The translations under genes and the position numbers were made by a program. Shown here in pieces: positions 17,556 through 50,604 of a stretch of DNA of 64,000 bases; within the stretch, counting starts at the first letter, position 1, and every line of letters begins with the position of its first letter. The stretch comes from Cystobasidiomycetes sp. EMM_F5 (lineage: Eukaryota), in the NCBI GenBank assembly GCA_051047955.1, contig JBPGPT010000048.1, forward strand, positions 1 to 64,000, read 5' to 3'. Below the pieces are notes generated by a model. It ran no database searches and was not told the origin of the DNA. It saw nothing but the letters and a program-made list of their open reading frames with translations.

Positions 17556-19128
17556 TTACTTGAGGGTGCGACTTAACAATCGAGAGCTGCTCCTTCGACT
17601 ATTCATTGCTGGAGAGGTGTAGGTGCTTGCACCGCTTTCCGTGGGCGTTGCTGCGTCAAGTTGAATCGAAGAATTACAGCTGGCCGGAGTTTGGGGCGGT
17701 GATGGATACGCAGCTGCTGCTACAGCAAGCGCAGTCGCATTCAACGAGTCTGGCGAGATGTCGCGCTTCTTACGACTACTTGTGCGCGGAAGGCTGGGTC
17801 GTTTCCGCTTGGCGGGTGACGGGGTTTGCAAGTTATCTTGTTCAATCTTGATGTCCATTACCGACAGGCACTGTTCGGGTTTGATGCTAGACTCTTTCTG
17901 GACGACAACAGTACTTGTGACCAGCAGAGGATCATCGTACGTCGCGAACGATGCCAGATCGGCTGTGAATAAAATCTCGACGAGCAATACGCATCAGCCA
18001 AGGATGTCTGCAGATTGTGACATAGTCGGAGAGAGCTGATTGACCTACCTGATGAGCCCAACCAGCCTTTACTGCCCACGCACTTTGCAGTCTCTCTCGA
18101 ATTTTCTGATACATTGCCTTTGAAACGGTAGCGTCCCTGCTACCTTTCAAGCCGTAATCGCGCACCGCAATTTGATACACGTGAGTGTCCACTGGGACGA
18201 CATTTTCGAAACCAAGCCCAAACAAGAGTATGCAGTCGGCGACTTTCGGTCCCACTCCAGCAAATTGGAGCAATCGCGCCCTTGCATCGTCCTCCATCAA
18301 TAGTGAGGTTGTCTCCAGCCATTCCTCTGCATCAGAACGACCGGCTTCCTGAGCCATTGTACAAACCAAAGCAGCAGTCTTGGTAACGTATGCGTCGCGG
18401 TAGCCGAAACCAGCGGCTCTCAGCGCAGCTGTAACGCCATCTCCTAGCAAATCCTGGGGTTTCGGAAATGCGTAGACGTTGTCGTCCTCCTCATTTGGTT
18501 CGCTGAATGGACCCGAAAATGCGGACGATGCAGAAGGAAGCTGCTTGCCGTACAGTTTACAGAGTCGGCGAAGCATACCCTCTATTCGGGAAATGTGGTT
18601 ATTGCTTGAGCATATAAACTCGATGAGACACTCCCACGTTGGTTGGCGCAGTATGCGTATCCCTGCAAATCTTGAGCCATTGCTCGTCTTTTTTGCAAAG
18701 TTGGCATCTCTCGCCGACCAGAATTCGTACAGCGGCGGCAGAGACACGTCCAGTACGAAATATCGACGAAGAAAGCTCAGAGTCGTATCGCTCAGCACAT
18801 CTTCGGCGTGCGCGGAGCTGGCTGTTGGCGGGAACAGCGAACGATAGTGGATCCCATGAGCTAGGCAAATATTTCATTAGGACTGCTATCCAGTAATCAG
18901 CAACTCAGACCCACCGTCCTGCCGCAAGACGATAGTCCTGTCTATGTGTCCATACGACCACTCTTCCTGCAGAGATGAGCCGTTCTTGACGTCCACCGGG
19001 GACGATATCGTAGCCCGGGCTGCAGACTTGCGCCAGAGAAACGTTTGGCCGCAGCGCAATACTGTCGCCAGCGACAGCTGAGCTGGTTCAATGGGCAAGA
19101 ACCGCAACGGGGACAGCAATGCAGACAT
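17556..19128 (-). CDS. OGG1: 8-oxoguanine DNA glycosylase/AP lyase
   Basis: Motifs LSLATVLRCGQTFLW, GIRILRQPTWECLIEFICSSNNHISRI, GFGYR, HhH-GPD GVGPKVADC...VPVDTHV, and GWAHQ|ILFTADL after splicing. Confidence 0.95.
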
Positions 19129-19211: not shown

Positions 19212-20806
19212 CTAAGACTTTCCTACAGTGAATATGCGGCTAGTACTGACGTTCATACGACTCCATCCTTTACCTTGCCAGAAAACTAGACGCGTCAATA
19301 GCCACAACCACGTAATGTGCTGTGCAGCGAATGGCATGGGATCCATAACATCCAGCATCGGGTCAATCTCGCTACCATTCCAGTAGCTCGCCAGTACTTC
19401 AGAGAAAGTCGATCCTGCTAACGGCGACGCCGTCACTGGCGGAATTGGGGGCCCGCTTACTCCAGGAGGCGGGGCGAGCAGAGGGTGCAATCTCTGCTGT
19501 ATCGGACGGGCCAGCACGCTCTGTGCGAGACTGAGGGGGATGGAGTGAAACATCCATGAGTAGGCCTGCTTGGCTTCTCCAGGCGGCATCAGCAGACCCT
19601 TCTTTTTCCGACCGAAATACGATTCCGCAAGGTCTTTGGAGGACACGCTGTTAAGCAAGACAGCGGCCGTATGGATACGTGGATTGCATTCGATAGGGTA
19701 CATCGTCCCGTCTTTGTCAATAATGAAATCAAAGCTGAAGTGCCCAGTCAGCCAAAAGTCGGCCCCTTCTGCTTGCAGGCGCTCTTTCCACTTGGCGAGA
19801 AAATCGCGTGTCCACTTTTCTGCTGCGTCCGCGATACGTGCAGAGTACTGGCTCTTGCAATCAACGTATCGCATCAGCATGTCCGAGCTTGGCGAGGCGA
19901 GGAACGACTGCATGACGCCGTCAACGGCGTGGCAGTGAGTACAATACTCGTAGCCATCAATGAATTGCTGCAGAACGTAAGGAGTCTTAGAAGTTATCTG
20001 CTGGGGCATTTTCTTGAGGTGAGCTACGGTAGCTTCGCGTGAGGCAAAAGGCAGTCTAGTAAGGTCGGAACGGCCTGAGGAATCGTATTAGACTGAATCA
20101 CGACGGCTATGGATTTTCAGCTTCACAAACCTTGATCATCCAGGGAGGTAGTCTTGATGATGAAATGTCGGCCTTTACGGTCATCGGAGTGAAGGAAGTC
20201 CACAGTCTCCTCAATGCTCTTGACGAGGACGCCTTCGGGTATCTGGAAACCCAGCTGTTGGCACAAATCCATAAAGAGATCCTTATTATGTAGCTGTTCC
20301 GCCTCTCGAGGGCTTTGAATGAATGCTTTAACCCCATCTTGCGTTCTCACGACCTGTGCGACCTGTGCATCATTCACTGTCGCTCCAGCTGACGATCCGC
20401 ACACCCAGAGTGCAACCTTTTCTTTCCGGATGATTGACCGTATGTCGCGCTCGTACGCGGCATGATCTTCTAACGGGTCCGCAAGATTGTAGTATCTCGA
20501 GACGCATCGCGAGAACCTGGCAGCAGCAAGCCAGCCCCAAGTCGCTTCATCGGCCATGACGACACGGTAGCCAGCTTTCCAAAACGTCCGGGCGAGAAAC
20601 AGGGATTTGGTGGTTCTAGCGCCAGTAACGAGGACTGTGACGCGGGTCGCATGCTTGTCGTGCAGAGCCTGCGCTTTTGGACCGCCCAGAAGACGAATGA
20701 GCAGGGCGACAGCAAAGGACACCGGAGCAGTCACAATCAGGACGCAGAGTAGGAGGATGGTGGACAGCAAGGATTGCAAATACGTGGGCTTGGCTGGCGC
20801 CGACAT
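19212..20806 (-). CDS. MysC-type ATP-grasp ligase (mycosporine synthase)
   Basis: Hydrophobic N-terminus, VLVTGARTTKSLFLARTFWKAGYRVV, ARFSRCVSRYY, LHNKDLF, YVLQQFIDGYEYCTH, TGHFSFDFI, PIECNPRIHTA. One intron near 20076-20131. Adjacent to DDGS. Confidence 0.88.
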
Positions 20807-21084
20807 GGTCTTGAGGGGCGTTGATGCAGACTTCTGATTAGGTGGGTACCGTTCTGGCGATGTAAAGAATCTGCGCAGAGAAACGAAACGCTCAGCACGT
20901 TCATTGTGGTAACGTAAATCGTGCTCTGATGCAATGTAGGACTGGCTAAACGGAACTCCGGAAACGCTTGCGATGACTCTGATGATTCTAATATACATGC
21001 TAACACAGCGGCGCTCTTGTGTGGCCGGTTTTTAAGTTCACTGCTGACCTATCGCTACAAGCTCGTGTTATGGAGGCGATCAAG

Positions 21085-22864
21085 CTAGCACCCGCAATCT
21101 CCAGTCAAATGTCCGTTGGACTTGACGGGGTTTCCGGTGCCATTCGTGGCGGCTTGCTTTGTGCTCTCCTTGCCAATGTGAGTGGCTTCTTTGGCCGATC
21201 GCTTCTCCTTCAGAAGCTGCTCTGGGTCTTGGCCCAAGTCACCAGCATCGACGTATGCCTCCAAACCGGCACCCTGTCGCGGGAACTTCTTCACAATCTC
21301 CTTGTGTGTTCTAAGAACCTTGTTCAACTCTTCATATGACGCATCATTGATGAAGTAGGGCGTTCCGATGGGCTTTGGTACGACGAATCTTTGCTGTCCG
21401 TCGCGAGTTTGGAGGATAGCCTCGGTACCTTCCTTCAGTAATTCCTCGTCGAAGAGTTCGTGATCGAGCGAGAGTCCAACGCGGCTCATTAAACCAAGTA
21501 GTTCATCTACAGAAGAAGACTGAGTAAGCCGATAATTGAAATGAAAACGGGAGGACAACTAACCTCGTTCTGCCTCATTGATGTATCCTCGTGTCCAAGC
21601 TAAGGTGCATGAGTATGCCATGTCGATGTTGATGGCGTGTCCGTGTCGTAGCGGAATCTCCGGCTTAAGCTCAAGCGTCGGTGACCAGGTGTGGCCGCTA
21701 AGAGGTACCAGAATCAACTAGGCACAATGCAGGAACACGTCGGGAGCGGCTCACAAGGCAATAACTCTGTCGAGACCGATCTCGTGCAAGTTTGGTGTTT
21801 CGAGCTGCAGATGAAGCGAGTTAGAAGCAAGTTTCAACCCACATCGTAAGAAAACATACATCCAACATAACCTTGATGCCGCGCTTGCAGATCTCATCAG
21901 CAATTCCGATGATTTCGCCCTTCGCTCCATCAGCTCGGCCGAAGCGGGTCTCGATCAGAGCCTCGCCGTTGGCCTCCAGCAACTGCCATGTTCGGAGGTC
22001 GGAGACTGACGAAATCTTGACAAGCTCTGCAAATCCATTACGGACTTGACCCTCTGGCAGACTTCGCAGGAACGTGAAATCTAAAAAGGTCATTGCGGGA
22101 GCGTGATATGCGCCTAGGCGATTCTTGAGTTTGCCATGGTTAACGGCGACCTTGATGCTGACGGCAGCTGATGGGATGAACACGAGTAAGTTGGTTGCGC
22201 ATGCCATGGCACTCAAATGGATATTGACGAACCGTCAATCAGTCCGATTACAGTTGTGGGGATTCTGATGAAGTTGCTGTTTCGGCGATAAGAGGCGCAC
22301 GCGAACTATTGGCACCCGTAAGCATGCTTCACGGATTGAAAGAGTATATGCCCGAAACTCACACCACAGACGTCTGTGACTAGACCACCACCAACAGTAA
22401 GGACGGGCTCCTTGCGAATCAAGCCGAACTTGGCAAAGGCATCGACAAGCGAAAGCATGGTATCCATTGTCTGCGAATTGCATCGACTCGTGTCAGAAAT
22501 CGATTGTAAGGCCTCATTGAGCAGAACGAACCTTGTGCAATTCTCCACCAGGCATGACGTGGATTGTAAGAGGAATCTGGTGATGGGAGAAGTAGGCTTC
22601 CATTTGCGTTCGGTAGAGATCGCTGATAATCTGGTCGGTAACTAGAAGGCATCGTCCCCACTTCTTGTAAATATCGGCAAGATGTGCGTGGTTCGGATCG
22701 AAGATGTTGTCGACGAACTTGAAGCCTACCAAGCGTGGCATTAGCATCAAGTGGATGCGATCTCGCATTGAAAGATTGTGCTAACCATATTTCAACTCCT
22801 CAAATCCATTGACGTTGAATCCATCTGGCTGAATGCCAACGGAGGCTTTCATATCAGAAGACAT
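21085..22864 (-). CDS. Demethyl-4-deoxygadusol synthase (sedoheptulose 7-phosphate cyclase, MysA homolog)
   Basis: Motifs [101 protein letters not shown]. These match the DDGS subfamily rather than DHQS. Confidence 0.93.
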
Positions 22865-23883
22865 ATTTGAGCTTTAGTACTTGGAGAAGGGAATGGCTTG
22901 AGTGGAAATGCAAACGGTTGAAGTTTGCAGAACGATGTATGTAGGTTGAAGCTCGGAGGTAGCGGATGTCAAGAGGTAGAAGAGGAAGGCGCTCGAAACA
23001 CGTTCTCCTTGCAGTCGGAAATGCGCCGTTAACGATCAAGCTGGATCGAAGCCACCTATGCTTCCTGGTCACCATTGCATCACAGAGCAGCCAGTCTTTC
23101 ACATCGTCAGCCACTTGGTGCTGTATATTTATGCATCAGAAATGCGGGCGCGGGTGCGGGCGCGTTTACTTTTCGAGCATCAAGCAGGCTGTCACCTACG
23201 GGGTTTCGGGCACATCGAGCGAGTCGTCTATACGAACGTGATTTTGCATTTTCAGCCTGCACCTCCAATGATGATATTAAAATCCAGCGCAAACGGCTCG
23301 CTTGCTTTTTGCTAATCCAGCCTATTCAGGAGGTTTTGGGCATACTTTCGCACCGAACTACATGTCTAAATCGCTGCATAGTGCCAGTTTGCGCATTTTT
23401 GACGTCTTCTTGCCACACTGCTAGCGGGGGAAGTCTCGCTGTGGCTGCAGATCAGTCGCAAGCTTCTGGGCATACGAAATGCGAGTATCTGGCAGAGGAA
23501 GCTCGCTGTTTAGGCAGGCGATGCTCAGTGCACCCGCCCAGAACTTCCGATGCCAACGCATCGATGCGCGATCTGGCATCAATCCTGCAGCTGTGCCTGG
23601 AGAGGGAAGGTCGTGACGCAAAAACAATGTTTACGAGCTGGGTCACTTGAAATGCAGAGAATGTATGCGTCCATCAGCCATATACGTAGCCAGACACAGT
23701 GCATCGAGCAGTGTAGAGTAACGCAGCTCGCCCGCTTTGTTCGTGTAGTGTCTGTTGCGGATATCTTGCAAATCAGTTCGCGTCTCTTGCTTTGATCTGA
23801 TAACCCGTCAAATCTGATAAATCATCAGAAGTCTTGAGAAAGACTTGCAGCTGGAAGAGGTCAGTCTGCAACTATACTGCAAC

Positions 23884-24958
23884 ATGGTGATAGTCGGGAC
23901 ATCTTCGCAGTCAGCCCTTGAGGCGCTGTAAGCCGCAGTGCTGCCAATTTACACCAGGATATGTGCTAATCTATCTTACGAAAGAACAGCACGGCGCACA
24001 CAATCATCGAGCGCATACAGGTGCTGCTAGCAAAAGTTCAGAAGGAGCAGACCCTCTCGGACGATGGGCGCTCGGCCCTTGATGAAGCGGAACGCGTCAC
24101 TAATGGTCTCGAAGATTATCTGGAACGCATGTCCACGCCGCAACCAGATATACTGGTGAGTCCTCAGGCGAGCATCAGACACGAAGACGCGCTGAATCAC
24201 TGTCCTGTGCCGGTGACAGACGGAGATGCTGCAAAAAACCAACGAGACCGACTGGAAACAGCTGTACAAGGATGGCACAATCAAAATCCCGCTCATCAAG
24301 GAAATGAGTGCCGGAGGCTATGAGGCTGTATTGCTCAGGGAGTTGGCTGTGATGAAGAAGGTAGGCTGTCATTTTGCGATGTCCACCTCGCGAGGATATA
24401 GTCTAACCGCGTTATCGATAGGCAAAGCGCATACTGGAGATTGGTGTTTTCACTTCCACTACAACGGTCGCTCTGGCGCTCGTACCGACAGTGGACAAGA
24501 TCGTAGCGCTCGAAATCGAGCCATACCTCGAGAAATTTGCAGCACCTTATTATAAGCAGGCTGGTGTGGAGAAGAAGATTGACTTTAGAGTAGGAAGCGC
24601 GTTGAAAACGCTTGATACTCTAGAGAAGGATGGGGAAAGTTTTGACATGGTCTTTATCGATGCCGACAAGGATGCCTACTACAAATACTACGACAAACTC
24701 ATGTCGAGTCCAACACTCTTGGCTGAAGGAGGTGTAATCTTGGCTGTGAGTCTTTCGCAATTGGCTATGTGACAGAAGCTCATTCCGTTTCCCTAGGACA
24801 ACACAATCTACAAGTCTTCGGTGTACGCACCGCATGTAGCATTCAAAGAAGGTGCGGATGCACTGGGTAAATTCAATCAAAAGGTCAGAGATGACCCACG
24901 AAGCGCTGTAGTATTGCTTCCTGTGCGGGATGGCATTAGTCTCATCAGAAAACTGTAG
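23884..24958 (+). CDS. O-methyltransferase (MysB homolog, CCoAOMT/COMT-like)
   Basis: Motifs EMSAGGYEA, LEIGVF, FDMVFIDADKDAY, LAEGGVILA|DN, VVLLPVRDGISLIRK. Divergent from DDGS. Confidence 0.9.
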
Positions 24959-25131
24959 CGTATCTTTCAATTGCTATCGTAGTTTACGGCCAGAACTTGA
25001 GAGTCAAAAAGCATTATTGCGATATTTGCCACCACGACGTCTTGCTTCTGCGGCGGACTGGCTTGCTTTTGCCTTCTACAACACGCTCGTGCGATTCTGA
25101 TATTTTTCCCATATTCTATAGGGCATTCAGC

Positions 25132-28100
25132 ATGGAAGACCTCACTTATCTTGTCATGACAGCAGCTGACTGCGCCGAATTCAACAAGACAAATCCACAT
25201 TCCATTGTTTCGCTCAATCAATTGCTTGATGAGCGGGCAACCTCGGTCGGAGATCAACTCTGCGTTGGCTTCTCTACTCGTCAAGAGGATGGAAGCTTCG
25301 CTTGCGAAACATTTAGTGCGTGCTCTGTGCGCACAGACCTCGTTTGTGTATTCCTGCGAGCTTGACACACTGACGACAGGGACCCCTTCTCAGCTTACTC
25401 GCAGCTACACAGATACGTCTCCAACACAGCGAATCGACTTCATGCTCACTCTTCGGTTCCCGTCCGGAGGTCCGTCAAAGAAGGTCCAATACGCATCGCC
25501 CTGTTGTCGCAGAGCAATGCCAGCTTTCTCATCCATCTTTGGGCATTGTTGAGACTCGGTCTCAGCGTGCTCCTCGTAGCGTGAGTCATCTGCTGCTTGC
25601 TAGCGCTATCACGGGTAACCGAAGACAATAGTCCTCAAAACACCGCCGAAGATATCGCTCATTTGTGCAGCAGCACTGGGGCCCGGCAACTTTTGTATCA
25701 TCCTCATATGGAGAAGCAGGCGGAGAGCGCAATCTTAGCAACTCCTGGCAATACTTTGCAGATTACGCCATTCTTTGAAGATTTCATGGCGGATTCTCCG
25801 TACCGTGAAGCAGCTTCAGTCCGATCCAGAGTCACCCCCGCTGAAGAAAGCGATTTGGAGTGCATCATCTTCCACTCGAGTGGATCATCTGGTCGTCCAA
25901 AGGTACGCGGTCTGTTTTAGCTGTTTCAAATGCGCTCATTCCGCCATTCCATAGCCGATCCCTCAAAAGCACAAGACGTGGACGAAGGCAGCATGCTGTC
26001 GGCCGCACAGCCCAGCCTATACGACAACACCTCTGTTTCATGGAGGAATTTCGGATTTTTTCCGAAGCATCATGAGCAAGAGCGTCCTCTACTTCTACCC
26101 ATCCGATCTACCCATCACCGCCGACAATCTTTTAAAGGCATTCGAAGTGTGTCCCTTGACACCGACGAGCTTTCTCTCTGTCCCATATATACTGGGTATG
26201 CTGGCGGAAAGAGAGGATGGTTTGGCGAAACTAGCAAGTTTTGAATTGGTCAGTACTGGCGGATCTCCTTTGGCATCTGATGTTGGCAACCGTCTATGTA
26301 AAGCGGGAGTCAAGCTTGTCAGTCGGTACGGGTCGAGTGAATGTGGATGTGCGTCGAGGGAATTGGCTGTCTTCACCGGAATGGGACTTAAGTGTTATTC
26401 TTGCAGTTCTCATGACGTCGTATCGAGATTTTGCTTCGGACGCACACTGGGATTATCTGCGTCCATCGGCTGGAAATGGGCGACTTATCTTCGAAGAACA
26501 GGAGCCCGATTTGTATGAGCTGGTGGTACCGGCTGACTGGCCAACGAAGGTAGCGGATCATTTTTCTTGCCGTGGGTTGACATGCTAACACGATTTGCAG
26601 TCCAAGTCAAACCGATTAGATGGATGCTTTGCAACAAGCGACATCTTTCGCAATCATCCCCATATAGCCAACGCTTGGCTCCTGATCGGTCGTAACGATG
26701 ATGTGCTATTGCTGGTCCGCCGTTTCTTATTTTGTACAGCCGCGTCTGTAGCTGATTACAGGGTTAAATGACAGGCAAATGGTGAAAAGGCTAGTCCAAG
26801 TGTGCTCGAGACCGCTCTGTGCAGTGCTCCCGCCATCAGTGATGCGCTGGTTTTCGGCAGCAACAGATCAGCTTTAGGGGTAGCTGTGATTCCGTCGTCA
26901 GCAGCTACTCGCATGCAGGATATTCTCGAAGAGGTTGCCCAAGCTAATACAACCGTACCATCCCACGCTCGTATATCGCCAGAGCTTGTGCTTCTGCTTC
27001 CACCGAACGCTACGTTCCCCAAGTCTAGCAAAGGGAGTCTGCAGCGAGGGCGCGCCTACCAGGCATATGCAAAACATATCGAAGAAATTTATGCGAGGTT
27101 CGAAGAAAGTGGCAATGCCGAGCCGGCACCAAACGGAGATAGAACACTACGTACGCGGGCAGAAATCACAGACTTTATAACAAAGACTGTACAGCGAATG
27201 CTTGGCAGTTCCTCCATCCTACCTGGATCCGATCTGTTCAACGAAGGCCTTAACTCCCTTCAAGCTGTCAGGCTTCGTAATATGCTGCAAAAGGTAGTGA
27301 TCAGTTGCGGAGATTACGTTCGCTGAGATCTTGCCGCAGAATGCACACTTTCCCGCAGGCGCTAAGTTGCCAGCCAACGTCGTTTACGAGTGTGGATCAG
27401 CAACGGGGTGAATAAAGGCGTTATTGCACACTCGTCTAGGCTGAGGGCTGCGTCCAGACTGGCGGCTTATATCTCATCTCTTAGCGAAGGGGATTTAAGG
27501 AGTCAGGACGACCGAGAATTGCGCCTCATGGCGCAACTTGCTGTGCGAGGTGACCTGCTGGAATTCCATCCCGTTCAGGCTGCTCGCGACATTAACGGAA
27601 GCTGTGACCATCAGCAAAACATCGTAAGCAGCATGCCAAGAAGTATAAAACACCACTGAAGTATCTGAATCTAGGTCATCACTGGAGCAACAGGCTCATT
27701 GGGCATTCACCTGCTCGAAACCTTTTTGTGGCGCTACCCGGAGTCCACAATAGTCTGCCTATGCAGAGGAGAAGACGACGCACAGGCTCTATCGAGGGTG
27801 CTGGACTGCGCGTACAGGCACAAAGTCCACTTATCATCAGATCAGTTGCAGAGGTTGACTTGTCATGTCGCGCATTTTGACAAAACTTTATTGGATTTGA
27901 ACGAATCCACTTATCTGGATCTCGCTCGCAAAGTGACTTTGATTGTACATGCTGCCTGGCCAGTACATTTCGGCGCTGGTCTTGCGTCCTTCGAGCCACA
28001 TCTCAAAGGTAAGCACATTTATCTTAGCTTATTTCTTTCATTGCTCAAAGCGGTCAAGCAGGCCTCACAAACCTGATCAGACTGGCAAACCACCCGCAAG

Positions 28101-28952
28101 GCCGTCAAGCTGCGTTCTACTTCTGTTCTTCGACGGCCGCCACATTGCGAAACAAAAGTCTGACGAAGCCGGAGGCGATCTCCACGGACGAACGCGATGC
28201 TGTGTCGATGGGGTATGGGCGATCTAAGCATGTCGCAGAAACATTGTGTCACACTGCGTGGCACTGCGGAATGCAAGGTCGTATTGGAATTTTACGTCTA
28301 GGGCAGTTGAGCGGCGATAGCAAGAATGGGGTGTGGAAGGCGGAAGAAGGTTGGCCCTTGTTAATTGCCAGCTCAGGTCTCGTAGGATGTTTGCCGGATC
28401 TAGCCGAAGTACGCGTCTGGCCGTGACTGATATCGCCGGCCAAGCTGACACGCTTGCGCACAGACCCTCTCTTGGCTGCCGATAGACCTAGCAGCAACAG
28501 CGATCGCCGATATCATACCGAGGAAGTCGTCAGACAACGAAATTCCTGTCTATCACGTCGTATCACGCGACGTTAGCAAATCGTGGCGAGACATCCTGCC
28601 AGTCATGCGCGAGTCTGGCCTCAGATTCGATACTGTCCCCACGCAAACGTGGTTGGCTAAACTTGTAGAAAAGCGGGAAAGTGGGGTGCGACATGATAGC
28701 TTGAAGATGCTGGATGTTTGGCTTGCCAATGTAAGTCTGGCTCTGGCGGATGCGGTCCCGTAATGCTGATCGGCGAAAATTCAGTATGGTACCGCCGCGA
28801 AGAGCGAGCATCCAATCGCGTTTGCGACCGAAAGGGCATCGTCGTGTACGTCAGCTCTTGACTTTCGAATAACAGAGCAATATATCAGCCAGATGATCAG
28901 TTACTGGGCGACAATAGGCTTGATATCTACCAGTCCTGCACGTATGAATTGA
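25132..28952 (+). CDS. NRPS-like carboxylic acid reductase (adenylation-thiolation-reductase)
   Basis: A domain: IFHSSGSSGRPK, SRYGSSECG, GRNDD, FPKSSKG. T domain: DLFNEGLNSLQA. R domain: ITGATGSLG, HAAWPVHF, GYGRSKHVAE, RLGQLSGD. More than 10 introns. Confidence 0.9.
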
Positions 28953-28963
28953 TCTATGTACGA

Positions 28964-30184
28964 CTATGGACAATTCAAGTTATAAGGGGCGCAGGCGCCC
29001 TTACCGCCTTCGTCAAGAGCGTCCAGCTCAGCCATGTCCTTATTATCGAGTTTGAAGCCATAAACATCGATGTTGCTTTTGATTCGCGATGGCGTGTCTG
29101 ACTTCGGCAACGGAATATATCTGAAACAGCCGGAGAAAGCGATGTGTCCGTCAGTCGCGAGTCTAGCAATAATTGCAAGTATCTAAGCACCCTTTCTGCA
29201 GAGACCAGCGGATTAGAATCTGAGTGGGCTCCTTGTTGTGCTTGGAAGCTAGCTTTTGCAAGACTGGATGGTCATTCTTAGAGGCTCTGACGATAGGACA
29301 GTAGGCTTGCAAAGGGATTCCAATCTCTTCGCAGTATTTGACATGCTCGCGAGACTGGCACCATGGGTGGAGCTGCGTGTGATCCTTCAGCCCAACGCAC
29401 TTTCTGTTGCTTGGTTGTTCGAATGTCTTACCTCGATCTGATTGACGGCAATTTTGGCTTTCGCATACGATTTCAGTTCTTCCAGGTGTTTTTGACCACT
29501 TGTTTCTCATATCAGCAAAGATTCAGTTGATTGCATACCAACATACTAATTGCTAACGCCAATGGCTCGCGTTTTCTTGTTGTCAAGAACTGGCGTATTG
29601 CAAAGCATGGTGTAGTACTCAGTTTGGCTGTGGTAAGAAGATTATGTATAGACCTCACGGCGTTCTAAGGCCTGCCACATCACTTTACGTCCTTCTGGGC
29701 CAGACGTCGGGGTATGAATCAAGAAGAGGTCAACATAGTCTGTTTATGAAGATAGCAGTACGGTCAGTATCGGGTTAGCAAAACATGCACTTCGACCAGG
29801 AATACAGAACAAGCCTTACCGATTCCAAACTTGTCTGTCGCTTTGAGCACGGCTTGGTATGTCTCTTCGGGGTCTTTGCCTTCCGGCGGTGCGATAATCT
29901 TTGTTGTTACAAAAAGGTCTTTGCGATCCACGCCAGACTTGCGGATCGCTTCCCCGACTTCACGTCTGTTCAGCCGTGTCAGCTTCCGGCACCAGTACTA
30001 TCACTTGATATGCGCACTCGTTTGCATAGTACATGGCGCTGTCAATGAGCGTGTAGCCGTCCTTGATGGCTTCCAGACATGACGCAACGCACGTCTCGGG
30101 CGGGGATTTGTAGACGCCAAAGCCAATGCGTGGCATATGCACGCCAGGCGCGACTTCTATGGTATCTTTGGCAGAGTCTGACAT
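28964..30184 (-). CDS. Aldo-keto reductase
   Basis: Motifs MPRIGFGVY, IDSAMYYANE, FVTTK, YVDLFLIHTP, NQIE|LHPWCQ, QILIRWSLQKG|YIPLPKS. Ends ...PYNLNCP*. Confidence 0.92.
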
Positions 30185-30390
30185 TATTTACAGATGGTAG
30201 GCAGTTGGTGGGCTACATGGCAAACTCGAAAAAGCCACCCGGGCACAGTCCGTCAGTGCAATCCAGGCACAACTTCTGGCAACCCTGTTGGCAGCAGGAC
30301 TACACCTGCATTTGTCATTGAGCTTTTGCACAGTCCCTCGCACTCCATGACTTATATACTCCAATGCGCACAATATTCCGTTTACCGTTC

Positions 30391-31529
30391 CTACAACTTG
30401 CTACTCCGGGCAACTGTGGCAGATGCCTTTGGTCTTCTAGCAGCCTCTGCGCCCACTCTGCAGGGGTAGGGAAGATGTTCAGAAGACTTCAGTGAGAATA
30501 GACTCTGTTACGATGGAATGGTCACCCACAAGAATCCGCTGGTCTCCATGCGGAAGACGCCCTTGTCATCAGGAATGAGCCAGGCTGTAAAGTTGGTCTT
30601 CTCGTCTGGATCAGAGACAGCGCCTATAAATGCGGCTACAACGTCTTCGATCTGCGCCCAACCTTGTTTCGGATTCGGGTGCACAAAGTCTTTTGTAATA
30701 ATTCCAGTTTCTGTGAATTTGGTCGAAATGAGCAGCTGGATACAGCAACAGCAGTTTTTCGCTGACGCACTAACAAAGTACGGACATATCGTCACGCATC
30801 TGACGTCTATGCTCCTGCATGTCTCGATTAGTCCCTTCATAATGCCAAGAATGCCTCTGTCGAAGACCTGTCATAAGCACGAGCTTCGCATGGTACGACT
30901 CGCTCACTCACGCTTTCGCGGCACCATACTCAACAGCAAAGTTTGCACCGTAGAAGGACGACATTGACCCAGTGAAAGCGATAGAGCGCAATCCAGGCTG
31001 TTCGCGCTTGTCGTTGTAAAAATACCACAGGGCGATGCGAGTCGTGTACAATACGCCAATGAGGTCAATGTTGAGAGTCCGCATGTCTGGCTTGGTCGGC
31101 CTGTCCTGCGGGGTACCCTCTTCCATCCGTTGATCAAAACGTCCAAGCTCGGTCACTCCGGCGTTGGGCAGTACGATATCAATAGAGCCAAACTTGTCAA
31201 TGCCCAGTTTGAACAGAGACAGCTGAGACTCCCAAGAGGTAACGTCGCATCTTCCAGTGACCGCTTGGCTGCAATCAAAAGTGGGTCAGCTGTCGCTCCA
31301 AGCAGCCCGGCTCGAGCTACCCGGCCCACCCTTTCTCTTTCTGCACCATCTTGACCGTTGTCTGCAGCCCTGCATCGTCGACATCGCCCAGCACCAGCTT
31401 TGCGCCGTGCTTCGCAAATTGAACAGCGCATGCTCGCCCAAAGCCTGATGATGCCCCGGTAATGAGGACGACACGACCCTTCAAACGGTCAGCATTGGCG
31501 TAGCATTGAGCGGTAGTTAGGGCGGGCAT
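30391..31529 (-). CDS. Short-chain dehydrogenase/reductase with C-terminal SKL (PTS1)
   Basis: Motifs ITGASSGFG, CDVT, NAG, YGAAK. Removing the last intron (30458-30529) adds VGAEAARRPKASATVARSSKL*. Confidence 0.88.
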
Positions 31530-49125: not shown

Positions 49126-50270
49126 TTATGACTGCGCTACCACTGGAACCACTACATTCTGCCACAGTTTGCGTTTGTTCGCGTCTTTGCTTTCCGTCCA
49201 CTCCTTCTCCACCTCGGCGTACTCGTCCCACCACAACTTGTGTGTAGATTCGATGACATCGTCGCCGTATGTCCTGCTCTTCCAAGGTTTGGCCAGGATG
49301 TAGTGCAGAATCTTGACGTCCTCATCTTTCCACAGCTGCGAATGACATGATCGCATTGGCTTCAAGGCGTTGTAGATGTATGGCAGCGGCTTCCACTTGT
49401 TGCGGTACACGATGGCGAGCAGATCTTGATCGAAGAAGAGCATCTTGGGCACGTCAGGATGCGTGTTCATGGCGTCAATCACCTCATCGTACTGCTTTTT
49501 GGACGGCTGGAGGATGACAGTGCCACTGTTGAGTAAGTGGTGATTCTTTGGGCTGTCTTCCGTAATCGGCGCAGGCTCGCCGGTGGACTGGTTGGCGGCA
49601 GTGAATCCACAATTTTCGGGAACCCTGGTTCGATGACTCCGTATCAGCTAGAAGCAGCCTTCCACCTGTCGAGACGGCTCACCAGTCTTTGCTGTAATGA
49701 GCCACTTTTTTCGGGTTGCATGTGCATGCATGAGCGGCGGCTATCCAGCCATCGGGAAGTTCCATAGTCATCATGTCATCGATGTTTCTCCGGATAATCT
49801 GGTCACTATCGAGCAGGACGACGCGCTGTCATACGAGAGATTGGCGGATAACAATAAGCTTTTATCGAAAAACATGAATTGTTCGCCATACCTCGTACTG
49901 CGTAAAGCCCCACGGCGCAAGCTTCTCCCAAGTGCCCTTGTTGACTTTCCCATCCCTCGGCGCAGGCTCTATCGGGTCGACTACGATAGTCGGAATTCCT
50001 GCAGCTTCAAAAGCTTGCATGTACTCCTTGTCGGCTTCAACATCCTGTGTGACCATGACTACGAGTTGGTATTTTGAGCCAGATTTGCGCAGTGTGTGAT
50101 CCAGGACGAGTAGCCCGCCACTGTTTCGCAATGAATCTTGGTCAGACCTATCATGCAGGGAACAAGGCTAATCGGACGCACAAGTATGCTCGATTTGTGA
50201 GCAGCGTTGTCCAGATTTTGGATGTATCGTAGCCATTGGAGCTCCCGTTGACTTTGTTTGCAGCCGCCAT
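49126..50270 (-). CDS. Glycosyltransferase family 8 (glycogenin-like fold)
   Basis: Motifs WTTLLTNRAY, WEKL, YERVVLLDSD, HACTCNP, LNSG, FFDQDLL, LPYIYNALK, HYILAKPW. Confidence 0.9.
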
Positions 50271-50604
50271 GCTGAAGGGGCTTCTCGTCGATGAAGCTCT
50301 ACGTGAAGGAAGGCGAAGACTACCTTCTTGAGCAAGTCTCAGTATCGAGCGGTGCGTAGCTGGTAGGGAACCCGCAGAGATTATTGCAAAGGGTTGCCTC
50401 AATGTCAAAGATTATTTACCTCCGAAAACTCAGGATATCGCAGTCATCGACAATCAATCAGTGCACGTGTGCAAAATATGCGGACATTTTATCAGATCAG
50501 CAAGCAGCGCCGAGCACTCGGATACAGTGACTATGTTTATACAACGGAGCTATGCATCCGGAGTTACGGCGTTGACAGGTTAAGTGCATAACTTTAAGTG
50601 CGCT

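What the first reader, a model, noticed from the sequence alone, without database searches (positions are those of the whole stretch)
19212..31529. Extended mycosporine cluster: core trio plus NRPS-like reductase and further reductases
Seen: six contiguous enzyme genes, ATP-grasp (-), DDGS (-), O-MT (+), A-T-R reductase (+), AKR (-) and SDR (-). Established: DDGS and O-MT make 4-deoxygadusol, and a MysC-type ATP-grasp ligase adds an amino acid. Fungi typically accumulate the reduced forms (mycosporine-glutaminol or -glutamicol, often glucosylated). Inference: the A-T-R enzyme reduces the amino-acid carboxyl to an aldehyde and the AKR completes reduction to the alcohol. That would supply the poorly characterised late steps of the fungal pathway. 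No MysD ligase or A-T-TE MysE is present, so oxo-mycosporines absorbing near 310 nm are predicted, not shinorine-type compounds.
Basis: partly seen in the sequence, partly recalled or inferred. Interest (0 to 1): 0.85.

Follow-up and report, generated by a model that had tools for sequence, protein, structure and literature searches.

The report
Fungal sunscreen cluster with candidate reductase
A basidiomycete fungus keeps the three known genes for its UV-sunscreen molecule (mycosporine) beside an acid-reducing enzyme that also sits beside those genes in distantly related fungi, which makes it the likely missing step that turns the amino-acid part of the sunscreen into the alcohol form fungi accumulate.

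Summary
All six genes are real. The ATP-grasp/DDGS/O-MT trio is a known fungal mycosporine cluster. The A-T-R belongs to one fungus-wide clade with near-invariant putative pocket residues. Clade members neighbour the trio in all three other fungi whose DNA I read, lie 2-3 accessions from DDGS in 3 of 5 named pairs, and share a gene model with the ATP-grasp in Whalleya. The Phaffia relative CDZ97946 is strongly White-Collar-2 dependent. An AKR is adjacent in 2 of those 3 fungi; the SDR has no linked relative. Best reading: the A-T-R reduces mycosporine-glutamine/glutamate to the aldehyde, and the AKR or a host reductase gives the alcohol. No step is shown biochemically. Against: the Phaffia trio alone in yeast reportedly gave mycosporine-glutaminol, though only by HPLC co-migration. 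Ten literature searches found no assignment of the reductive step; three key papers were not held.

The parts
19212..20806 (-). MysC-like ATP-grasp ligase, 2 exons
   Evidence: 23 homologues at E<=1e-3, close clade 54-65% identical
21085..22864 (-). Desmethyl-4-deoxygadusol synthase (DDGS/MysA)
   Evidence: carries the DDGS signature quoted in PMC10057719; intron joints in run X1
22865..23883 (.). Shared divergent promoter DDGS/O-MT; 9 GATGC-type pentamers (weak, post hoc)
   Evidence: 9 vs mean 3.9, 6 of 500 shuffles reach 9
23884..24958 (+). O-methyltransferase (MysB type)
   Evidence: PF01596, 98 bits; two intron joints in run X1
25132..28952 (+). A-T-R carboxylic acid reductase of a mycosporine-linked fungal clade; A-domain P-loop, carrier serine, NADPH motif and YxxxK all present
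28964..30184 (-). Aldo-keto reductase (YvgN/AKR5-like), catalytic D-Y-K-H present, stop codon 11 bp from the A-T-R stop; probable second reductase
30508..31529 (-). Short-chain dehydrogenase; membership of the cluster unsupported; 3' end uncertain

Best explanation
The locus is a fungal mycosporine pathway with its reductive step. DDGS and O-MT make 4-deoxygadusol from sedoheptulose-7-phosphate (established). The ATP-grasp enzyme joins an amino acid to it (established for the family; glutamine or glutamate here is inferred from known fungal products). The A-T-R then adenylates the carboxyl of the mycosporine-amino acid, loads it on its carrier serine and releases the aldehyde with NADPH (inferred). 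The adjacent AKR, or a host reductase where none is linked, reduces the aldehyde to mycosporine-glutaminol or -glutamicol (inferred). An unlinked glucosyltransferase can then glucosylate the new CH2OH. My odds: cluster makes an oxo-mycosporine 0.95; A-T-R acts in this pathway 0.85; it acts after ligation 0.65; AKR does the second reduction 0.5; SDR takes part 0.15-0.2.
For: Linkage in DNA: 3 of 80 metagenome DDGS loci were long fungal genomic contigs (L019 and L020, apparently one Pezizales-like fungus; L043, another ascomycete) and all 3 carry the A-T-R with ATP-grasp, O-MT and an AKR. An A-T-R scan of GTDB gave 1 clade member in 79 loci, on a fungal contig mis-binned as bacterial (L081), directly beside the trio. 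Accessions A-T-R vs DDGS: Phlebia g2610/g2612, Gloeophyllum EPQ56692/EPQ56694, Phanerochaete sordida GJE91273/GJE91276. Whalleya KAI1083049 holds ATP-grasp and A-T-R in one model. All these fall in one 71-row clade (FastTree 0.937) whose named members group by fungal lineage. Clade-invariant residues G 66/66, D 66/66 and R 69/69 are variable in the 35-row sister group. The acidic residue that binds a free alpha-amino group in amino-acid A domains is replaced by Gly (mapping by motif, numbering recalled), which fits an N-substituted substrate. Phaffia CDZ97946: log2FC -3.6/-3.9 in the wc2 disruptant, third in the sorted 70-gene list that also holds cryptochrome DASH. Glucose in MGG sits on the glutaminol chain, so reduction must come first; strain CBS 6938 keeps this A-T-R and makes MGG once the trio is returned.
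Against: Sepulveda 2023 report mycosporine-glutaminol from the trio alone in S. cerevisiae and propose that the ATP-grasp uses glutaminol; identity was by retention time and UV only. Linkage is not universal: Mixia genes are 25-29 accessions apart and Planoprotostelium genes lie on contigs of different length; the published Phaffia cluster has three genes. I did not test whether all clade carriers (for example Tilletia, Melanopsichium) have the trio. Accession pairs are few, and Gloeophyllum was picked after seeing a shared contig length. No 'aldo' or 'keto reductase' entry among the Phaffia WC2 genes, while several SDRs are listed. The WC2 contrast is disruptant vs overexpressor, and the authors call WC2 control of CrtI/CrtS light-independent. 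No enzyme assay exists for any clade member that I found.
Confidence: 0.7

Rival explanations
1. The A-T-R reduces the free amino acid first, and the ATP-grasp ligates the amino alcohol to 4-deoxygadusol.
For: Sepulveda 2023 draw the ATP-grasp using glutaminol. MysC is recalled to activate the cyclitol rather than the amino-acid carboxyl, so an amino alcohol is chemically usable. Linkage and co-regulation fit either order.
Against: The A domain lacks the acidic alpha-amino-binding residue in 66 of 66 clade rows (numbering recalled). Acid forms (mycosporine-glutamine, -glutamic acid, -serine) are known fungal products beside the alcohols. Free alpha-amino aldehydes tend to dimerise (own knowledge).
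Confidence: 0.12
2. The A-T-R does the whole four-electron reduction, or any host reductase finishes it. The AKR is a helper or bystander; alternatively the SDR plays the part of the second R domain of glycine betaine reductase.
For: No AKR within 10 kb in L081. The linked AKRs belong to two subfamilies. No AKR among Phaffia WC2 genes, but an SDR (CDZ96711) is second in the list; I could not test whether it is related to the window SDR.
Against: An AKR is the direct neighbour of the A-T-R in the window, L019/L020 and L043. At the AKR density of G001 (13 loci in about 7 Mb by my count; the script used 14) the chance for 2 of 3 within 5 kb is about 0.001, rough and post hoc. In G001 the best match to the linked AKR type lies 18.5 kb from the A-T-R. 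The closest solved R domain is that of NcCAR, recalled as aldehyde-releasing. No SDR relative near the other clusters.
Confidence: 0.3
3. The trio suffices for mycosporine-glutaminol; the A-T-R makes or modifies another co-regulated product and is clustered for shared regulation.
For: Published yeast result. CBS 6938 keeps an apparently intact, expressed A-T-R although it lacks the trio. Unidentified peaks 3 and 4 in the complemented strain.
Against: No MS in that paper. No source of glutaminol in S. cerevisiae is offered in the sections read. Linkage in both Basidiomycota and Ascomycota, in several gene orders, is hard to explain by regulation alone.
Confidence: 0.12

Closest known systems
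Phaffia rhodozyma MYC cluster (DDGS-OMT-ATPG; PMC10057719)
   Same: Same three enzymes, DDGS divergent from O-MT, no MysD or MysE
   Different: Here an A-T-R, AKR and SDR follow; ATP-grasp lies downstream of DDGS. The Phaffia A-T-R relative (CDZ97946) is outside the published 7.9 kb cluster and was not considered in the sections read
'myc' NRPS-like clusters of Hypoxylaceae (Kuhnert 2021, PMC8403587)
   Same: NRPS-like gene clustered with mycosporine genes; Hypoxylon and Whalleya proteins fall in the same clade
   Different: Products there are 'yet unidentified'; no reductive role assigned in the passages read
Neurospora crassa carboxylate reductase NcCAR (PDB 8AEP)
   Same: A-T-R architecture; best PDB sequence match to the R domain (E 4.6e-32; TM 0.84 by target)
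   Different: Only a distant match also for the Sordariales clade member P0135 (86.8 bits), so not an orthologue; recalled as a broad aryl-acid reductase
Cyanobacterial MysE (A-T-TE) and MysD
   Same: Fourth enzyme acting after the ATP-grasp step; MysE also has A and T domains
   Different: Thioester reductase instead of thioesterase; predicted to reduce the first amino acid, not add a second
Glycine betaine reductase ATRR (A-T-R-R) and Lys2
   Same: Adenylate-forming reductases; ATRR reduces an acid to an alcohol in two steps
   Different: Only one R domain; far below the Lys2 model cut-off; Phaffia has a separate Lys2

Membership tests
Mycosporine (mys/MYC) cluster | DDGS-type sedoheptulose-7-phosphate cyclase | tested here: met
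   62-87% to the 120 listed homologues over one exon; signature present
Mycosporine (mys/MYC) cluster | O-methyltransferase beside it | tested here: met
   35-45% to O-MTs of bacterial mys loci
Mycosporine (mys/MYC) cluster | MysC-like ATP-grasp ligase | tested here: met
   no Pfam hit over cut-off
Mycosporine (mys/MYC) cluster | Produces a 310 nm mycosporine | not testable with these tools
   no metabolite data
Imino-MAA (shinorine-type) cluster | MysD ligase or A-T-TE MysE | tested here: not met
   fourth gene ends in NAD_binding_4; none seen in the scanned window ORFs; whole genome not held
Fungal carboxylic acid reductase (A-T-R) | A, T and terminal R domains, no C domain | tested here: met
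Fungal carboxylic acid reductase (A-T-R) | Intact P-loop, A10 lysine, carrier serine, NADPH motif, YxxxK | tested here: met
   read by eye; A- and T-domain columns
Fungal carboxylic acid reductase (A-T-R) | ATP/NADPH-dependent acid-to-aldehyde activity | not testable with these tools
   needs assay
Lys2 alpha-aminoadipate reductase | TIGR03443 over cut-off; the organism's lysine-pathway copy | tested here: not met
   P0029 64.5 vs 1030 bits; Phaffia Lys2 is A0A0F7SEP1
Glycine betaine reductase ATRR | Second, SDR-type R domain in the same chain | tested here: not met
Amino-acid-activating A-T-R (piperazine type) | Acidic residue binding the alpha-amino group | tested here: not met
   Gly in 66 of 66 rows; position mapped by motif, numbering recalled, not confirmed by residue-level structural alignment
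Aldo-keto reductase | D-Y-K-H tetrad | tested here: met

The most novel reading that the evidence does not exclude
A fungus-wide, uncharacterised clade of A-T-R enzymes ('the fourth fungal mycosporine enzyme') reduces the ligated mycosporine-amino acid, with an AKR recruited more than once as partner. The published three-gene fungal pathway is incomplete: trio-only yeast makes mycosporine-glutamine, and Phaffia CDZ97946 is the missing reductase, possibly lying next to the subtelomeric MYC cluster.
Probability: 0.45. Interest if true: 0.82.

Novelty: new variant of a known kind. Interest (0 to 1): 0.7.

Why it matters
Fungal mycosporines have been known since the 1970s mostly as amino alcohols and their glucosides, and I found no enzyme assigned to that reduction. 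This locus names a candidate family, a likely partner and a knockout target in a genetically tractable producer. One LC-MS run on an existing yeast strain could overturn the current pathway. It would also give a route to engineered mycosporine-glutaminol and its glucoside for sunscreens, and an A domain with an unusual N-substituted substrate.

Tried and rejected
No whole genome for the window. Balskus & Walsh 2010, Miyamoto 2014 and Osborn 2017 not held. Word search with the A-T exon gave 1 hit; the HMMER search was needed. The DDGS metagenome scan returned mostly short intronless contigs and bacterial-type operons; 77 of 80 loci could not test fungal linkage, and I inspected only L074 of those in detail. 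Weak A-domain or R hits (42-135 bits) in 6 of them are not clade-level; L074's is a canonical NRPS module. One AKR exon query was out of frame; one search repeated the comparison with correct frames. Viral contigs: nothing. No RNA holder listed; run X1 covers DDGS and O-MT only, which says nothing about the other genes. Long clade members checked for fused pathway enzymes: only P0092. AlphaFold model of P0029 (pLDDT 86) and Foldseek confirmed the fold but gave no substrate clue. PDB profile alignments did not cover the pocket. NcCAR orthology rejected. Fusarium ppt1 paper only speculates on mycosporines. Kuhnert supplements gave no cluster map. Atlas search of the SDR exon gave generic adh_short clusters. 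Tree rows: proteins under 600 aa or with short A-T matches were left out; window and L019 rows are partial; midpoint root; no clade test.
Full report
Observation. The window is intron-rich fungal DNA at about 51% GC; the closest named DDGS is from Mixia osmundae, 78% over one exon, so a basidiomycete is likely. Between an OGG1 glycosylase and a CCCH zinc-finger gene lie six genes as described: ATP-grasp(-), DDGS(-), O-MT(+), A-T-R(+), AKR(-), SDR(-). The A-T-R and AKR stops are 11 bp apart. Contigs of run X1 join across DDGS and O-MT introns.

The trio. The DDGS carries the signature quoted for the Phaffia enzyme. The O-MT passes PF01596. The ATP-grasp has a close clade of unnamed relatives and ascomycete relatives near 30%. 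This part is a known kind of cluster.

The A-T-R. A search of 1.84 billion representatives with a close relative gave 2580 hits, 150 listed. A tree of 106 rows splits into a 71-row and a 35-row group; the window rows sit in the first (support 0.937) next to Phaffia CDZ97946, and named members group by lineage: Basidiomycota, then Pezizomycetes, Leotiomycetes, Lecanoromycetes, Sordariomycetes, plus the amoeba Planoprotostelium. In this clade the residues after the A4 histidine (G, G, then D) and the arginine before the A5 glycine are invariant (66/66, 66/66, 66/66, 69/69); the first G, the D and the R vary in the sister group. By motif these are substrate-pocket positions (recalled numbering). 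One conserved polar substrate without a free alpha-ammonium is my inference. The protein is not Lys2, ATRR or MysE, and NcCAR is only a distant relative.

Linkage. A DDGS scan of metagenomes confirmed 441 stretches and returned 80 loci; 3 were long fungal genomic contigs from apparently two ascomycetes, and all 3 hold the clade A-T-R within 8 kb of DDGS. L019/L020: A-T-R, AKR, CLN3-like, O-MT, DDGS, ATP-grasp. L043: A-T-R, AKR, ATP-grasp, O-MT, DDGS. The reverse test in GTDB found one clade member in 79 loci, on a mis-binned fungal contig: ATP-grasp, O-MT, DDGS, A-T-R. Of 5 named organisms with both identifiers, 3 have them 2-3 numbers apart (Phlebia, Gloeophyllum, Phanerochaete sordida), Mixia 25-29 apart on one scaffold, Planoprotostelium on contigs of different length. 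Whalleya has ATP-grasp and A-T-R in one model, a fusion or a merged neighbour. The sample is small, but it covers both Dikarya phyla and several gene orders.

AKR and SDR. The AKR has its tetrad and matches the L019 AKR at 37-73% per exon. L043 has a Kv-beta-like AKR at the same place, which suggests separate recruitment. In the L081 fungus no AKR lies within 10 kb, but the best match in about 7 Mb lies 18.5 kb from the A-T-R beyond unrelated genes. A rough chance figure for 2 of 3 within 5 kb is 0.001; G001 is a mixed bin and I did not check that all of it is fungal. The SDR has no relative near the other clusters.

Regulation. CDZ97946 is a gene of X. dendrorhous CBS 6938. It falls by log2 3.6-3.9 in the wc2 disruptant against a WC2 overexpressor and rises 2.0 in a ptr1 mutant (one control replicate is an outlier); it is third in a sorted 70-gene list that includes cryptochrome DASH. 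No AKR appears under 'aldo' or 'keto reductase' in the WC2 table. The gene lies about 10 kb from the end of a 1.05 Mb scaffold; the MYC cluster lies 14 kb from the end of a 1.14 Mb contig. Whether these are the same end is untested.

Mechanism. Established: DDGS and O-MT give 4-deoxygadusol, and the ATP-grasp is needed for the mycosporine (PMC10057719). Inferred: ligation of Gln or Glu, adenylation, thioester reduction to the aldehyde, AKR reduction to the alcohol. MGG carries its glucose on the glutaminol chain (PMC4665425), so a reductase must act in every MGG producer. The main counter-evidence is the report that the trio in S. cerevisiae gave mycosporine-glutaminol; compounds were identified by retention time and spectrum, and 'mass spectr' does not occur in the text. 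The acid and the alcohol both absorb at 310 nm per the review tables, so the peak may be mycosporine-glutamine; that is my inference.

What is in print. Sepulveda 2023 state that fungal clusters have the three core genes only. Kuhnert 2021 list mycosporine-like clusters among NRPS-like ones, product unidentified. A 2023 review notes SDRs of unknown role in MAA clusters. Ten full-text searches showed no paper assigning an A-T-R or AKR to the reduction; (mycosporine with aldo-keto reductase, fungi, gene cluster) returned 0. Most subscription journals are not searched; I put about one in three on an earlier report there. Seen: PMC10057719 abstract, sections 2.1 and 2.3, passages, supplement term search; PMC8403587, PMC5103461 and PMC9518987 passages and supplement term searches; PMC9409151 supplement rows; PMC13123865 supplement rows and part 1 of 2 of file 12 (files 13-16 not searched); passages only of PMC10666671, PMC12904256, PMC11195213, PMC3083659, PMC10384724, PMC3360786, PMC11580375, PMC4665425 and bioRxiv 2025.07.21.665953. 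Balskus & Walsh 2010, Miyamoto 2014 and Osborn 2017 were not held; figures were not visible. An earlier unchecked note of this scan (e1-7523365) mentions a mycosporine-linked reductase in another genome; I had reached the linkage before reading it.

Verdict. Real cluster, new variant of a known kind. The A-T-R is probably a true pathway enzyme, the AKR a plausible partner, the SDR probably a neighbour. Interest 0.7 because an old gap becomes testable with one knockout and one LC-MS run.

Noticed in passing
window 17932-19128 (-): OGG1 8-oxoguanine glycosylase starts about 80 bp past the ATP-grasp stop; not seen near the other fungal clusters, probably chance.
   Followed up: partly
window about 49129-50400 (-): GT8 glycosyltransferase 18 kb from the cluster. 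Two GT8 genes are WC2-dependent in Phaffia, and MGG is reported as an alpha-glucoside; GT8s are recalled as retaining enzymes. A speculative lead for the unknown glucosyltransferase; no match in the other loci.
   Followed up: partly
window 22865-23883: Nine GATGC-type pentamers, the highest of 124 window bins; resembles the recalled White Collar element, but other pentamers are more enriched.
   Followed up: partly
L081 / G001 contig C4: A 1.18 Mb fungal contig (introns, eIF3b, mycosporine cluster) inside a GTDB 'Alphaproteobacteria' MAG: contamination of the reference set.
   Followed up: partly
P0036 and P0294: The amoeba Planoprotostelium fungivorum has both a DDGS and a clade A-T-R; its DDGS was the best match to a cyanobacterial locus. 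Origin untested.
   Followed up: no
L019, L043, L081 O-MT genes: The ascomycete O-MTs look COMT-like and match the window O-MT only weakly (29%, E 0.001), suggesting O-MT replacement between lineages.
   Followed up: no
L019:4950-6542; L081:14091-15341: A CLN3/Btn1-like gene inside one cluster and an amino-acid permease beside another: possible transporters.
   Followed up: no
L074:12060-14580: Cyanobacterial DDGS-O-MT followed by transposase-like ORFs instead of an ATP-grasp gene.
   Followed up: no
P0077, P0086, P0117: Sister-group A-T-R proteins with a C-terminal P-loop kinase domain.
   Followed up: no
window 21008-22724, run X1: The DDGS contig is near-identical in its 5' exons but has about 6% differences in its 3' exons, suggesting mixed strains or a chimeric contig.
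   Followed up: no
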